Position numbers and translations under genes: made by a program. Under the pieces are notes generated by a model that was given only the letters and a program-made list of their open reading frames with translations, did no database searches and was not told where the DNA came from. A stretch of 46,853 nt of DNA from Chiloscyllium plagiosum (lineage: Eukaryota). The stretch is from positions 20,857,753 through 20,904,605 of the forward strand of contig NC_057719.1 in NCBI RefSeq assembly GCF_004010195.1. The letters are read 5' to 3'. Each line of letters begins with the position of its first letter. Position 1 is the stretch's first letter. Positions 3,401 to 31,893 of this stretch are shown in pieces.

Positions 3401-3648
3401 TTGCTAATCAGAGCCACAAGAAAGTTTGAGTAGTCTCATCCCACAAGCAGAGTCGTTCTAAGATGAGAAAGTCATCAATAAAAGGTACATTTAGTTGGGA
3501 ATTCGGGAGAACTTCTCTAACCAGAGACAGTTGGAATGCAGGCTTGCTACATGTAAAGTGATTTGGAGATGCCGGTGTTGGAGTGGGGTGTACAAAGTTA
3601 AAAATCACACAACACCACGTTATAATCCAACAGGTTTAATTGGAAGCA

Positions 3649-3683
3649 CACTAGCTTTCGGAGCGACGCTCCTTCATCAGGTG
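3649..3683 (-). ncRNA. Minimal type-I hammerhead ribozyme (intact core)
   Basis: Minus strand reads CAC-CTGATGA-A-GGAGC GTC GCTCC-GAAA-GC-TA-GTG. The plus-strand partner at about 6605-6640 has mutated core bases. Confidence 0.8.
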
Positions 3684-4091
3684 ATAGTGGAGGACTCGAT
3701 CGTAACACAGAATTTATAGCAAAAATTTGCAGTGTGATATAACTGAAATTATACATTGAAAAATTGATTTGTCTGTTAAGCCTTTCATCTATTAGAATAC
3801 AGTGATAGTTTCACTTCTTCCATGTGTAAATCACAAAACCTTTTTTTACAAGTTGCATTCTTGGGTTAGCTGTAAACAATGGTGATAGCTAGACAATATG
3901 TTGAAGGTGTTAGTCCCCTGTGTTCTCTGTCTGTGACCTGATGTTTGCATTGATTCTAATCTAAAAAGTGACATAACAGAGTTTTACATAAATTCATGCA
4001 GTTTTTGAGCTCAGAGTTCTACATGAATGTATGCAGTTTTTGAGCAAAGTGCAATGTAACTCTGCAAGTACAAATTCACCCCACAAAATAT

Positions 4092-4352
4092 ATGTGTGCA
4101 TGTGGGTCTTTGTCTGTCTGTGTGTGTGTGTCTGTCTGGGGTGGGGGTTGTGAGTGTGAGAAAATGTGTGTGAGTGTGCGTGTGTGTAGTGAGTGCAGAG
4201 TATCTTAAGTCTGTGAGGGGGTGCATGTGTGAGTGTGGGAGTGCGTGTGTCTATAAGGGTGTGTGTGGGTGTCTGTGTGCGCGTCTGTGTATACCTGTGT
4301 CCGTGTGTATGTGAGAGTGTGTGTGTGTGTAGGAATATCTGTGTGTGTGTCT
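4092..4352. repeat. Degenerate (GT)n/(CA)n microsatellite in the PLE 3' UTR
   Basis: Direct inspection. Confidence 0.9.
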
Positions 4353-4830
4353 AGTGCAATGGTGATCACCTGTAATGTGACATGAACCCAAGGTCCCGGT
4401 TGAGGCCCTCCCTATGGGTCCCGAACTTAGCTATCAGCCTCTGCTCGGCCACTTTCCTCTGCTGCCTGTGCCGAAGTCCAACTTGGAGGATGGTCACCCG
4501 AAGGTCTGAGGCTGAATGTCCTTGCCCACTGAAATTTCCCCAACTGGGAGAGAACCCTCCTGTCTGTTGATTGTTGTGCGGTGCCCATTCATCCGTTGTC
4601 GTAGTCTTTGCTCGGTTTCCCCAATGTACTATGCCTCCGGGCATCCTTGCCAGCAATGTATAAGATAGACAACGTTGGCTGAGTCACATGAGTACCTGTC
4701 ATGTACAAGGTGGGAGGTGTTCCCATGCATAATAGTGGTATCTATGTCCACAATCTGACACGTCTTGCAGCGTCCACCATGACAGGGTTGTATGGAGTTG
4801 TCCTGAGAGCCGGGCAGTTGGCTACGAACA

Positions 4831-6075
4831 ATGTTCAGCACCCACGGACTAGTTGAACCGGGAACATTCCTCGCCACAATGGACGTTTCCGCACTCTACA
4901 CCAGCATTCCCCACAAGGATGGCATCGCGGCAACAGCCTCAGTACTCAACACCAACAACTGCCAGTCTCCAAACACCATCCTACAACTCATCCGCTTTAT
5001 CCTCGATCATAACGTCTTCACCTTTGACAACCAATTCTTCATCCAGACATACAGAACAGCTATGGGGACCAAAGTTGCACCCCAATAGGCCAACATTTTT
5101 ATGCACAGGTTTCAAACAAGATTTCTTCTCTATGCAGGATCTCCAAGCAACATTGTACACCAGGTACATTGATGACATTTTCTTCCTCTGGACCCATGGC
5201 GAGGAGTCACTGATAAAATTACACAGTGACATCAACAAGTTTCATCCTACCATCAAACTCACCATGGACTACTCTCGACTGTCTGTCTCATTCTTGGACA
5301 CGTGCATTTCCATCAAGGATGGACACCTCAGCACCACACTCTACCGCAAACCCACAGACAACCTCACAATGCTACACTTCTCCAGCTTCCACCCAAAACA
5401 TATTAAAACAGCCATTCCCTATGAACAAGCCCTATGCATACACCGGATCTGCTCAGATGAGGAGGAACGTGACGGACACCTGGAAGTACTCAAGGATGCC
5501 TTCACAAGAACGGGGTACGAAGCTCAACTCATTGACCGCTAGTTCCGACGTGCCACGGCAAGGAACCGTAATGACCTCCTCAGGAGACAGACACGTGCTG
5601 CAACTGACAGGGTACCCTTCGTTGTTCAGTATTTCCCAGGAGCTGAAAAACTACGCCATGTTCTTCATGACCTGCAACACATTCTCAATGAGGATGAGCA
5701 CCTCACCAAGACTTTCCCCACACCTCCACTACTTGTCTTTAAACAACCTCCAAACCTCAAGTAGATCATTGTTCGTAGCAAACTGCCCGGCTCTCAGGAC
5801 AACTCCATACAACCCTGTCACGGTGGACGCTGCAAGACGTGTTAGATTGTGGACATAGATACCACTATTATGCATGGGAACACCTCCCACTTTGTACATG
5901 GCAGGTACTCATGTGACTCAGCCAACGTTGTCTATCTTATACGTTGCTGGCAAGGATGCCAGGAGGCATGGTACATTGGGGAAACCGAGCAAAGGCTACG
6001 ACAACGGATGAATGGGCACCGCACAACAATCAACAGACAGGAGGGTTCCCTCCCAGTTGGGGAACACTTCAGTGG
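4831..6075 (+). pseudogene. PLE reverse transcriptase + Cys-rich linker + GIY-YIG endonuclease (disrupted)
   Basis: MDVSALYTSIPH, TAMGTKVAP, YTRYIDDIFFLW, LYRKPTD, PCHGGRCKTC, NVVYLIRC...WYIGETEQRLRQRMNGH. Stops at about 5086, 5540 and 5762 and a frameshift near 5110. Confidence 0.93.
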
Positions 6076-7559
6076 NNNNNNNNNNNNNNNNNNNNNNNNN
6101 NNNNNNNNNNNNNNNNNNNNNNNNNNNNNNNNNNNNNNNNNNNNNNNNNNNNNNNNNNNNNNNNNNNNNNNNNNNNNNNNNNNNNNNNTGCACACATATA
6201 TTTTGTGGGGTGAATTTGTACTTGCAGAGTTACATTACACTTTGCTCAAAAACTGCATACATTCATGTAGAACTCTGAACTCAAAAACTGCATGAATTTA
6301 TGTAAAACTCTGTTATGTCACTTTTTAGATTAGAATCAATGTAAACATCAGGTCACAGACAGAGAACACAGGGGACTAACACCTTCAATCTATTGTCTAG
6401 CCATCACCATTGTTAACAGCTAACCCGAGAATGCAACTTTTAAAAAAAGGTTTTGTGATTTACACATGAAAGAAGTGAAACTATCACTGTATTTTAACAG
6501 ATGAAAGGCTTAACAGACAATCAATTTTTCAATGTATAATTTCAGTTATATCACACTGCAAATTTTTGCTATAAATTCTGTGTTATGATCGAGCCCTCCA
6601 CTACCACCTAATGAAGGAGCGTTGCTCCAAAAGCTAGTATGCTTCCAATTAAACCTGTTGGACTATAACGTGGTGTTGTGTGATTTTTAACTACATGTAA
6701 AGTGGCTGAGATCTTCAGCATAAATGCATTTACAGGGAACCAGATAAACGTTGTTCGATAATGCTCCTGTAAATCACCTTGGAAAGTTTTATTATATTGA
6801 AGATACTAAATGAATCACAGAACTATTACAGCACAAAAGGAAGTCATTCAGCCCATCATACTCTCACGAGAAAGTCAAATCAATTTTTTAACCACTATTC
6901 ATTCGAATCCACTGTTTATTTAATGGCAGGCTTTGAATCTAGTTCTTCAGAGAAATATCTGGGTCACCAGGTTACAAGCCCAGCAACAGTACCACTTCTC
7001 CATCATGCTTGCATTGAGTATAACCATAAACATAACATGAGGTGAGTGGTGTGGCCTGTTTCTGTCCTCTACATCCCATGTAACCTTGTGTGATGACTCA
7101 CTGGTACCTTATAGAGTTCAATGATGTTCCACTTACAACCCTTTTATTCTCTATCAAGAACAATGAATGGAACAAAGTAAGAGTTTGCTTATTATATCAC
7201 TGTCATCCTCAGAGCATAGTGGGTAGGAGAAACTAAGCAGCTATTTGTTCTGCTGTTCAAGAGCAAGTGAGTGCTCAAGAAAAGTGTCTAGGGATACAGT
7301 ATATAGCATGAATCCTACTGTACATCAGGGCTCATTACCTTCTGGTAGAACAAGCAGACAGTTATAGTGATCATTAGGGATTCAGGTTGAAGTGATTGCA
7401 CTTTCAGGACTGAAAGCATCGATAAAAACTCATTAATGCCTGGACTGAAGGATTGTTATCAGAGAGGAAACTAAGGTCTGTGGTTAAGAATTGCTGCTGA
7501 AATTGGGAAAAAACAAGTTGGAACCTTTGAGTCCCAGAGACATAAATAGATCATTTTGG

Positions 7560-12041: not shown

Positions 12042-12215
12042 GATAAAAGCAAATTACTGCGGATGCTGGAATCTGAAACCAAAAGAGAAAATGCTGGAAA
12101 ATCTCAGCAGGTCTGGCAGCATCTGTAAAGAGAGAAAAGAGCTGACGTTTCAAGTCTAACTGACCCTTTGTTAAAGCTTTGATCTGCTGAGATTTTCCAG
12201 GATTTTCTCTTTTGG
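12042..12215 (-). mobile_element. Fold-back PLE mini-element, same family as 31458-31680, with the right arm internally deleted
   Basis: Near-identical to 31458-31585. Imperfect TSD TTATTTTT(A)TCATTG at 12027-12041 and 12216-12229. Confidence 0.88.
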
Positions 12216-20977: not shown

Positions 20978-21070
20978 GGAGAAAGTGAGGTTTGCAGATG
21001 CTGGAGATCAGAGCTGAAAAATGTGTTGCTGGAAAAGCGCAGCAGGTCAGGCAGCATCCAAGGAGCAGGA

Positions 21071-21108
21071 GAATCAACGTTTCGGGCATAAGCCCTTCTT
21101 CAGGAATG
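21071..21108 (-). ncRNA. Minimal hammerhead motif (intact core, weak stem I)
   Basis: Minus strand CTGAAGA-A-GGGC TTAT GCCC-GAAA-CG-TT. Confidence 0.72.
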
Positions 21109-21987
21109 AGGAGGGTGTGCCAAGCAGGCTAAGATAAAAGGTAGGGAGGAAGGACTTGAGGGAGGGGCGTTGGGAATACGATAGGTGGAAGGAGGTTAAG
21201 GTGAGGGTGATGGGCAGGAGAGAGGGTGGGGGCGGAGAGGTCGGGAAGAAGATTGCAGGTCAAGAAGGCGGTGCTGAGTCTGAGGGTTGGGACTGAGANN
21301 NNNNNNNNNNNNNNNNNNNNNNNNNNNNNNNNNNNNNNNNNNNNNNNNNNNNNNNNNNNNNNNNNNNNNNNNNNNNNNNNNNNNNNNNNNNNNNNNNNNN
21401 NNNNNNNNNNNNNNNNNNNNNNNNTTGCAGGGGAAGGTGTTGGGAGTGGAGGTTGGGTTGGTGGGGGGTGTGGACCTGACGAGGGAGTCGCGGAGGGAGT
21501 GGTCTTTCCAGAACGCTGATAGGGCACGGGAGGGAAATATATCCTTGGCGGTGGGGTCTGTTTGGAGGTGGTGGAAATAATGAAGGATGATACGATGTAT
21601 CTGGAGGTTGGTGGGGTGATAGGTGAGGTCCTGGTGGTGATTGGAGGGGCTGGGTTCAAAGGCGGAGGAGCAGGAAGTGGAGGAGATGCAGTGGAGAGCA
21701 TCGTCAACCACGTCTGAGGGGAAATTGTGGTCTTTGAAGAAGGAGGCCATCTGGGTTGTTCGGTATTGGAATTGGTCCTCCTGGGAGCAGATGCGGCAGA
21801 GGCGAAGCAATTGGGAAGATGGGATGGCATTTTTACAGGGGGCAAGGTGGGAGGAGGTGTAATCTAGGTAGCTGTGGGAGTCGGTCGGTTTATAGTGAAT
21901 GTCTGTGTTGAGTCGGTCACCCCAGATAGAAATGGAGAGGTCTAGGAAGGGGTGAGAGGAGTCTGAGATGGTCCAGGTAAATTTGAG

Positions 21988-22197
21988 ATGAAAATGTGTT
22001 GCTGGAAAAGCGCAGCAGGTCAGGCAGCATCTAGGGAACAGGAGAATCGACGTTTCAGGCATTAGCCCTTCTTCAGGAATCGGCTAATGCCCGAAACGTC
22101 GATTCTCCTGTTCCCTAGATGCTGCCTGACCTGCTGCGCTTTTCCAGCAACACATTTTCATCTCTGATCTCATGCATCTGCAGACCTCACTTTCTCC
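21988..22197. mobile_element. Fold-back PLE mini-element nested in the RT of a closely related PLE
   Basis: Exact 16-bp TSD TCCAGGTAAATTTGAG (21972-21987, 22198-22213); about 80-bp inverted arms; 36-bp tail 22162-22197; minus-strand hammerhead at 22044-22081. Confidence 0.93.
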
Positions 22198-30830: not shown

Positions 30831-31457
30831 TTCATTATAAATTTGAAAACGTTCTAGTGACTTCCTCTCTCACCATGGCCTGGATAGCATCTATCTCCAT
30901 GGGAAAGACAAATATAATGTATTCATTTAATATTTTAGCCATATACCATGCCTCCACGTGTAAGACAGCTATTTGGCTCTTACTTGATCTCCTTCCTCTT
31001 TTGACCACTCTTTTACTTTTATATGCCTAAAGGAGACTTTAGGTTTCCCCCATTATATTGGCTGCCCGTCTTCTCATAATTCCTCTTTGTTTTCTGTAAT
31101 AAGCTTTTTCACCTCATCTCTGAATCTTCTGAATCCCTTTTGGTTCATGCTCGCCTGTTCTAACTCATTAGATGTACACCATGCTATCCAGGCCATGGTG
31201 AGAGAGGAAGAAACTCTTTCAACGAATATTTTCAAATTTATAATGAAGTATCTTTCGTGGTACAAGTGATGGAAAACAGAAACTAATGATCCGTGGATAC
31301 TGTTTAGGTTGGAGGAAGGCTTGTAGTGGAGCACTCCAGCACTTTAATGAACCAGATCTTGGTTTTGCAGGAGATAATTTCATAATTTGAGGATGATACA
31401 AAACTTGGAATTTTTTTAAACATTGAGGAGGACAATGCAGAACTTCCAAAGAACATA

Positions 31458-31680
31458 TTACTGCGGATGCTGGAATCTGAAACCGAAAGAAAAAATGTTG
31501 GAAAATCTCAGCAGGTCTGGCAGCATCTGTAAGGAGAGAAAAGAACTGACGTTTTGATTCTAACTGATCCTTTGTCAAAGCTTTGACAAAGGGTGGGTTA
31601 GACTCGAAATGTCAGCTCTTTTCTTTCCTTACAGATGCTGCCAGACCTGCTGAGATTTTCCAGCATTTTCTCTTTTGGTT
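31458..31680. mobile_element. Spacer-less fold-back PLE mini-element (100-bp arms)
   Basis: Arms 31481-31580 and 31581-31680 (11 mismatches by hand count). 14-bp TSD TTCCAAAGAACATA at 31444-31457 and 31679-31692. Confidence 0.93.
31577..31619 (+). ncRNA. Variant hammerhead motif with U3-A8 core
   Basis: AGCT-TTGACAA-A-GGGT..GTTAGACTC-GAAA-TG-TC-AGCT. Confidence 0.65.
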
Positions 31681-31893
31681 CCAAAGAACATAGGTGGAGT
31701 GAGGAGATAGACGACAAATGAATTTCAATGCGGAGAAGTTTGAGGTGATGGATTTTGACAGGAAGAACATGGACAGACAATATAAAATTAGGTTGCAATT
31801 CTAAATTGGGTGCAGGGGCATACTTTTAAAGGTGGCAGCACAGGTGAAGAGACCATACTATATCCTGAGTCTTATTAATAGCAACAGAGAGTT

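What the first reader, a model, noticed from the sequence alone, without database searches (positions are those of the whole stretch)
31540..31620. Natural U3-A8 compensatory variant of the hammerhead catalytic core
Seen: where the other well-preserved PLE ends in the window read CTGANGA, this family reads TTGACAA (plus 31583-31589 and the minus arm) or TTAACAA (minus strand near 12170). It is followed by A-GGGTC AGTTA GACTC-GAAA-CG-TC (consensus of the three arms) with stem I AGCT/AGCT. Positions 3 and 8 are both changed in all three arms. Known: C3-G8 is a tertiary Watson-Crick pair and U3-A8 variants can retain activity. Inference: the covariation argues that self-cleavage was under selection in this family, and that CUGANGA-based searches would miss it.
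Basis: partly seen in the sequence, partly recalled or inferred. Interest (0 to 1): 0.72.

Follow-up and report, generated by a model that had tools for sequence, protein, structure and literature searches.

The report
Known hammerhead variant in Penelope retrotransposon
The swapped core base pair is real and is the norm for a jumping-gene family with thousands of copies in this genome, but the same swap is already published for such elements, this copy is decayed, and cutting by this family's ribozyme is likely yet untested.

Summary
All three arms read U3/A8, and this is the family norm: 1,224 exact matches to a core-free anchor, 100 of 100 listed with A8; in an unbiased sample T3 47/50, A8 49/50. 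It is not CpG decay of copies (C7 50/50). The family is the pseudo-LTR of an autonomous Neptune-type Penelope-like element (3.2-kb unit, RT plus GIY-YIG). The variant is known: Cervera and de la Pena 2014 report about 1,300 U3-A8 minimal hammerheads in Schistosoma Penelope-like elements, and Perreault 2011 found natural U3-A8 cores. The scan has also noted it in other genomes. The three arms are not independent; they show one double change on one lineage. Compensation is likely (no single-mutant subfamily expanded; the rest of the core is intact), but cleavage is not shown. 93 of 100 copies keep sequence 5' of the cut site and 60 start at stem I, about 30 nt below a TATA box; a canonical family behaves the same. 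No U6 chimera at this family's cut site was found (low power). The flagged locus is a head-to-head hairpin with damaged arms. New member of a known kind; low interest.

The parts
31444..31457 (+). Left target-site duplication (14 bp)
   Evidence: identical 14-mer at 31444 and 31679
31458..31582 (-). Long arm: pLTR from stem I (AGCT) through the hammerhead into the tail; G12>A and stem II damage
   Evidence: (I12, D18)
31572..31578 (-). Core U3-U4-G5-A6-C7-A8-A9 of the minus arm
31579..31582 (.). AGCT: shared palindrome centre, 5' strand of stem I of both arms, inferred transcript start
   Evidence: 33 of 100 copies begin exactly here; start site is inferred, not measured
31583..31589 (+). Core U3-U4-G5-A6-C7-A8-A9 of the plus arm (the finding)
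31590..31605 (+). Bulged A plus stem II (family GGGTC/AGTTA/GACTC; this copy has C10.5>G and a changed loop base)
31606..31613 (+). G12-A13-A14-A15.1, palindromic stem III (family ACGT, here ATGT), C17; predicted cut after 31613
   Evidence: cut position from hammerhead numbering, not measured
31614..31682 (+). 3' strand of stem I (AGCT) and the rest of the short arm
31679..31692 (+). Right target-site duplication (overlaps the arm end)
12045..12178 (-). Second insertion of the same family, long arm; core TTAACAA at 12174..12168 (G5>A)
   Evidence: (D18, 91%)
12175..12215 (+). Short inverted arm of the second insertion with the hammerhead deleted

Best explanation
This is a decayed copy of the front end of an autonomous Neptune-type Penelope-like retrotransposon whose minimal hammerhead has U3-A8 fixed in place of C3-G8, likely a compensatory swap that keeps a weak, conditional ribozyme. 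Shown: the family state, the parent element, the copy structure. Inferred: transcription starts at the AGCT about 30 nt below a TATA box, so the ribozyme sits in the first 40 nt of the RNA; reverse transcription starts about 100-140 nt downstream, runs through the uncut ribozyme to the RNA 5' end and often switches template, giving short and head-to-head insertions such as this one. Inferred history: a C7-G8 CpG in a master element mutated to C7-A8, and C3>U restored the tertiary pair. Cutting would need a second RNA (palindromic ACGU stem III) or the element's protein, as published for other Penelope-like elements. The flagged locus itself would not cut: a read-through transcript folds into one long hairpin and both arms are mutated.
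For: Fixation: 100/100 listed A8 of 1,224; T3 47/50, A8 49/50. Single-change states are rare: U3-G8 7 hits; C3-A8 72 hits, of which 15 of the 20 viewed lack an intact AGCT before the core, mostly junctions with the inverted arm; the C3 arms held share no diagnostic sites except one duplicated insertion. All other core positions match the hammerhead consensus. Parent: L288 is a 3,236-bp pLTR-ORF-pLTR unit with U3-A8 at both ends, RVT_1 E 1.4e-7 above cut-off and a weak GIY-YIG match, E 0.039, below cut-off, with a CxxxxCxxC linker. An older sister family with the same stems I and II reads CTGA(T/C)GA. U3-A8 cuts the predicted gap to a core-sequestering misfold from 5.1 to 1.5 kcal/mol (monomer) and 14.4 to 6.5 (dimer) (secondary structure only). 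Literature: U3-A8 active in vitro as cited by Perreault 2011; anole Poseidon hammerhead is protein-assisted and uncleaved RNA is the main template. U6 is joined to the cut site of canonical families at four loci here.
Against: One double change on one lineage, so no statistical covariation. Only 1 of 100 copies begins at the cut site and 1 palindrome is centred there. No U6 chimera at this family's cut site (low power). Even with U3-A8 the misfold is the predicted minimum. RNA reads show no end pile-up (124 reads, 88% running into other sequence, so uninformative). The single C3-G8 copy with this family's loop and 3'UTR (L087) belongs to four copies sharing one breakpoint, three of them A8, so it does not prove the ancestral state; the other (L086) is a chimera with another family.
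Confidence: 0.65

Rival explanations
1. The ribozyme is vestigial in this family: A8 arose by CpG deamination in a master, U3 drifted in, and the element spread without cleavage.
For: 93 of 100 copies keep sequence 5' of the cut site; catalytic mutants do not impair insertion in vitro (Frangieh 2024); Naiads lack canonical hammerheads and still proliferate (Craig 2021); no U6 chimera for this family.
Against: The canonical CTGAAGA family shows the same pattern, 0 of 72 at the cut site, yet U6 chimeras record cutting in canonical families. The two changed core positions are exactly the tertiary pair and the other core positions are intact. No single-change subfamily expanded.
Confidence: 0.2
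2. The double change was tolerated or favoured for reasons other than catalysis: both changes are synonymous (Leu, Thr) in the frame that runs on into the element's ORF, and they create a small CTTTG-A-CAAAG inverted repeat near the RNA 5' end that could aid template switching.
For: The frame is open from the core into the ORF in L049 and L288; several inverted junctions use the small repeat (class -42).
Against: Inverted arms are equally common in the canonical family (42 of 100 against 31 of 75). No start codon lies before the core and no translation or splicing evidence was seen. An open frame of 34 codons can arise by chance.
Confidence: 0.12
3. The variant is an artefact of mutation after insertion (CpG decay of CTGACGA in each copy).
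For: G8 would sit in a CpG when position 7 is C.
Against: C7 is 50 of 50 while the two real CpGs of the motif have decayed in 18-26% of copies; only 2 exact C3-G8 hits carry this family's loop.
Confidence: 0.02

Closest known systems
U3-A8 minimal hammerheads of Cercyon Penelope-like elements in Schistosoma mansoni (Cervera and de la Pena 2014, PMC4209133; parts 1-2 of 4 read, 2 of 3 supplementary files searched)
   Same: Type I minimal hammerhead in a pLTR, U3-A8 in place of C3-G8, short stem I, bulged base before stem II, G10.1-C11.1, palindromic 15.2-16.2, over a thousand dispersed copies, pairs on opposite strands.
   Different: Here a Neptune-type element in a 3.56-Gb vertebrate genome (shark by earlier scan notes and my recall; not tested). 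One homogeneous family, stem II of 5 bp. Probably an independent origin (inferred, no tree built).
Natural U3-A8 hammerheads (Perreault et al. 2011, PMC3088659; passages read)
   Same: Same covariation of the core pair, reported in several natural examples.
   Different: The passages read do not place those examples in Penelope-like elements.
Poseidon PAc of Anolis carolinensis (Frangieh et al. 2024, PMC11167929; parts 1-2 of 4 read)
   Same: Hammerhead in the pLTR, internal initiation giving two 3' ends (tail), unprocessed RNA as main template, no RNA-seq ends at the cut site.
   Different: PAc has C3-G8 and belongs to the Penelope/Poseidon clade; its cleavage was assayed, this one was not.
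Neptune clade EN+ PLEs (as described in Craig et al. 2021, PMC8557442; passages read)
   Same: RT, CX2-5CxxC linker, C-terminal GIY-YIG, partial tandems and inverted 5'-truncated copies, tail.
   Different: Clade placement rests on the linker motif only; Nematis shares it and no tree was made.

Membership tests
PLE minimal hammerhead (min-HHR) | Core boxes CUGANGA/GAAA or the published U3-A8 variant, with U16.1-H17 | tested here: met
   Family majority UUGACAA, GAAA, UC in 50 copies; variant
PLE minimal hammerhead (min-HHR) | Bulged base between 9 and 10.1, G10.1-C11.1, palindromic 15.2-16.2, short stem I | tested here: met
   A bulge, G-C, ACGT, 4-bp AGCT/AGCT
PLE minimal hammerhead (min-HHR) | Located in the pLTRs of a Penelope-like element | tested here: met
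   Both ends of the 3,236-bp unit L288
PLE minimal hammerhead (min-HHR) | Self-cleavage (dimer or protein-assisted) | not testable with these tools
   Indirect genomic and RNA tests gave no positive sign for this family
Compensatory covariation | Several independent paired changes across lineages | tested here: inconclusive
   One double change; a probe of CCGAAACGT-type families gave 48 scattered U3-A8 hits and no second family
EN+ Penelope-like element | Single ORF with RT and C-terminal GIY-YIG | tested here: met
   RVT_1 above cut-off; GIY-YIG E 0.039 below cut-off but motif visible; the ORF is broken in the copies read
Neptune clade | CX2-5CxxC linker between RT and EN; phylogenetic placement | tested here: inconclusive
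   Linker present; no RT tree built
Non-LTR retrozyme | Non-coding head-to-tail tandem repeats of the ribozyme unit | tested here: not met
   Copies are dispersed single, inverted or partial-tandem pieces of a coding element

The most novel reading that the evidence does not exclude
An independently evolved vertebrate U3-A8 hammerhead placed at the very start of the element's transcript acts as a decapping switch: uncut capped RNA is translated and copied, while dimer- or protein-triggered cutting removes the first 35 nt and retires the RNA. The U3-A8 swap was selected because it restores the tertiary pair and also loosens an inhibitory helix between the core and CGUCAG while staying silent in the ORF frame.
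Probability: 0.15. Interest if true: 0.55.

Novelty: new member of a known kind. Interest (0 to 1): 0.25.

Why it matters
As a variant it adds little: U3-A8 cores are published in nature and in Penelope-like elements. Its use is practical. It is a large, homogeneous vertebrate family that descriptors built on CUGANGA skip, and it offers a clean natural pair (U3-A8 family against a C3-G8 sister with the same stems) to ask what Penelope hammerheads do, a function that Craig et al. 2021 call unclear. I found no paper on this family: searches for Penelope + shark + hammerhead ribozyme, for U3-A8 and for related spellings returned only the papers named; subscription papers, Repbase and Dfam were not searchable, and one supplementary file of Cervera 2014 and the supplements of the 2026 bioRxiv preprint on retrozymes could not be seen.

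Tried and rejected
Rfam scan of the window: no hammerhead family matched at E up to 5, only hairpin look-alikes. L087 as a relic of a C3-G8 ancestor: rejected as proof, it is one of four copies with one shared breakpoint, three with A8. L086: chimera with another family. A C3-A8 intermediate subfamily: not found. A cap-derived G before AGCT: G 11, C 12, A 3, T 2 at 28 non-palindromic junctions, no clear signal. RNA: no RNA holder on record; one raw-read run gave 124 reads with no end pile-up or splice joint, the other none. Contigs of four other organisms cover the motif from the same AGCT start, but the difference table omits sites near ends, so I draw no firm conclusion on positions 3 and 8 there. 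U6 chimeras at this family's cut site: none among about 40 of 126 U6 candidates and none by three patterns; one search was too loose to use. Pfam scan of three first fragments found nothing. Przybilski and Hammann 2007 and Lunse et al. 2017 were not held; they are known to me only as citations.

Full report
Observation. The sequence is as described. The plus strand reads AGCT-TTGACAA at 31579-31589, the minus strand the same from 31582, and a second insertion reads TTAACAA at 12174..12168. Six other Penelope ends in the window read CTGANGA. The two arms at 31.5 kb form one palindrome with no spacer inside one 14-bp target-site duplication. A read-through RNA folds into a single hairpin of -161 kcal/mol, z -21, and all three arms carry damaging changes: C10.5>G and C15.2>T, G12>A, G5>A. 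Rfam has no hammerhead match here.

Is U3-A8 the family state? Yes. A pattern that leaves positions 3, 5, 7 and 8 free has 1,224 exact matches and none in the control; all 100 listed have A8. I then took 100 copies chosen only by a 35-nt anchor downstream of the cut site (2,600 exact matches, first 100 listed). Of the 54 that reach the start of stem I, 4 with indels were dropped; of the other 50, 45 read TTGACAA, T3 is 47/50 and A8 49/50. C7 is 50/50 while the two real CpGs have decayed in 18-26%, so A8 was in the template and is not decay after insertion. Genome-wide counts of the other states with a loop-free pattern: U3-G8 7, C3-G8 8, of which 2 have this family's loop, C3-A8 72. Of 20 C3-A8 loci viewed, 15 lack an intact AGCT before the core, mostly junctions with the inverted arm. 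Among 232 arms held (not an unbiased set) the C3 arms share no diagnostic sites apart from one duplicated insertion. A probe of the larger CCGAAACGT-type families gave 48 scattered U3-A8 hits and no second family.

What carries it. Loci with sequence upstream show a 3'UTR and a TATAAATA box about 30 nt before the AGCT, and RT and GIY-YIG fragments. L288 holds a full unit of 3,236 bp with U3-A8 in both pLTRs. Its broken ORF matches RVT_1 (E 1.4e-7, above cut-off) and weakly GIY-YIG (E 0.039, below cut-off) and has the Cys linker that Craig et al. 2021 give for Neptune and Nematis. Copies fully alignable over the window compared differ from the majority by 2-8% outside CpGs. An older sister family keeps the same stems I and II with CTGA(T/C)GA, which makes C3-G8 the likely ancestor. 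The one same-family C3-G8 copy with its 3'UTR, L087, cannot prove this: it is one of four copies with a shared breakpoint, three of them A8.

How copies are made. In the unbiased 100, 60 begin at -41 to -46 from the anchor, 33 exactly at the A of AGCT; 13 run on into the 3'UTR, 20 begin inside the ribozyme, 6 downstream of the cut and 1 at the cut (both arms of a palindrome were counted separately). One palindrome in the genome is centred exactly on the cut-site AGCT. The canonical CTGAAGA family (20,963 exact anchor matches) behaves alike: 0 of 72 at the cut, peak at stem I (3 of 75 dropped for N). Inverted arms are as common in both, 42 of 100 and 31 of 75. So templates were mostly uncut RNA that probably started at AGCT (inferred). 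This agrees with Frangieh et al. 2024, who found uncleaved RNA to be the main substrate and the ribozyme protein-assisted, and with earlier scan notes on this genome. It neither shows nor excludes cleavage, since cut RNA may simply not be copied.

Does this ribozyme cut? Not shown. For the U3-A8 family I found none, but about 40 of 126 U6 candidates were read and the family is small beside the canonical ones, so the test has little power. RNA reads were uninformative. Folding of a real near-majority copy gives stems I and II but with U4-G5-A6 paired to the cut-site region; the gap to the open core is 1.5 kcal/mol for U3-C7-A8 and 5.1 for C3-C7-G8, and 6.5 against 14.4 for the dimer. This is secondary structure only, but it gives a second reason why the swap could be favoured.

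Reading. The most likely account is a compensatory swap in the master element that kept a weak, conditional ribozyme (0.65): exactly the paired positions changed, the rest of the core is intact, and neither single change expanded. A vestigial ribozyme (0.2) and a non-catalytic reason (0.12; both changes are synonymous in the ORF frame) remain open.

Comparison with what is known. Cervera and de la Pena 2014 describe this variant in Cercyon elements of Schistosoma mansoni, built a descriptor for it and retrieved about 1,300 hits; their minimal hammerheads cut weakly and only as multimers or with a mimicked stem III. Perreault et al. 2011 report natural U3-A8 and cite earlier in vitro activity. 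Earlier scan notes list the same variant in several other genomes (unchecked). I found no paper on this family. Verdict: a real feature, a new member of a known kind, interest 0.25.

Noticed in passing
L049:969-1140; L288:1400-1570: Both U3-A8 changes are synonymous (Leu, Thr) in the frame that stays open from the core into the element's ORF; the first ATG in that frame lies about 170 nt downstream.
   Followed up: partly
L082, L331, L349, L352 (older sister family): The core holds an ATG at positions 6-8; a GT in stem II and a pyrimidine tract-AG before the tail would, if spliced, put it in frame with the IPASAVIC stretch shared with the U3-A8 family. No splicing evidence.
   Followed up: partly
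L413:1093-1199, L414:1126-1236, L455, L470: U6 snRNA 3' end joined to the predicted hammerhead cut site of canonical Penelope families (lead from earlier notes, confirmed by sequence).
   Followed up: partly
L289, L293, L295-L297, L301-L304: Many insertions are a 5' pLTR plus a 3'-truncated ORF joined directly to a second unit that starts at AGCT, suggesting template jumps after reaching the RNA 5' end.
   Followed up: partly
window 31340-31860: The flagged insertion sits inside a decayed LINE-type RT fragment (DDTKLG and QMNFNAEK motifs on either side; CR1-like by recall).
   Followed up: no
window 3596-6692: Another Penelope-like element with RT and GIY-YIG fragments and nested inverted arms 95% alike; it carries a different CTGATGA hammerhead on the minus strand.
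   Followed up: no
window 21018-22164: Canonical CTGAAGA family element with a partial ORF on the minus strand and a 83-nt hairpin at 21985-22164.
   Followed up: no
L087, L354, L355, L359: Four copies share one 5' breakpoint and private changes including C3 and a broken TATA box; probably one insertion multiplied by duplication.
   Followed up: partly
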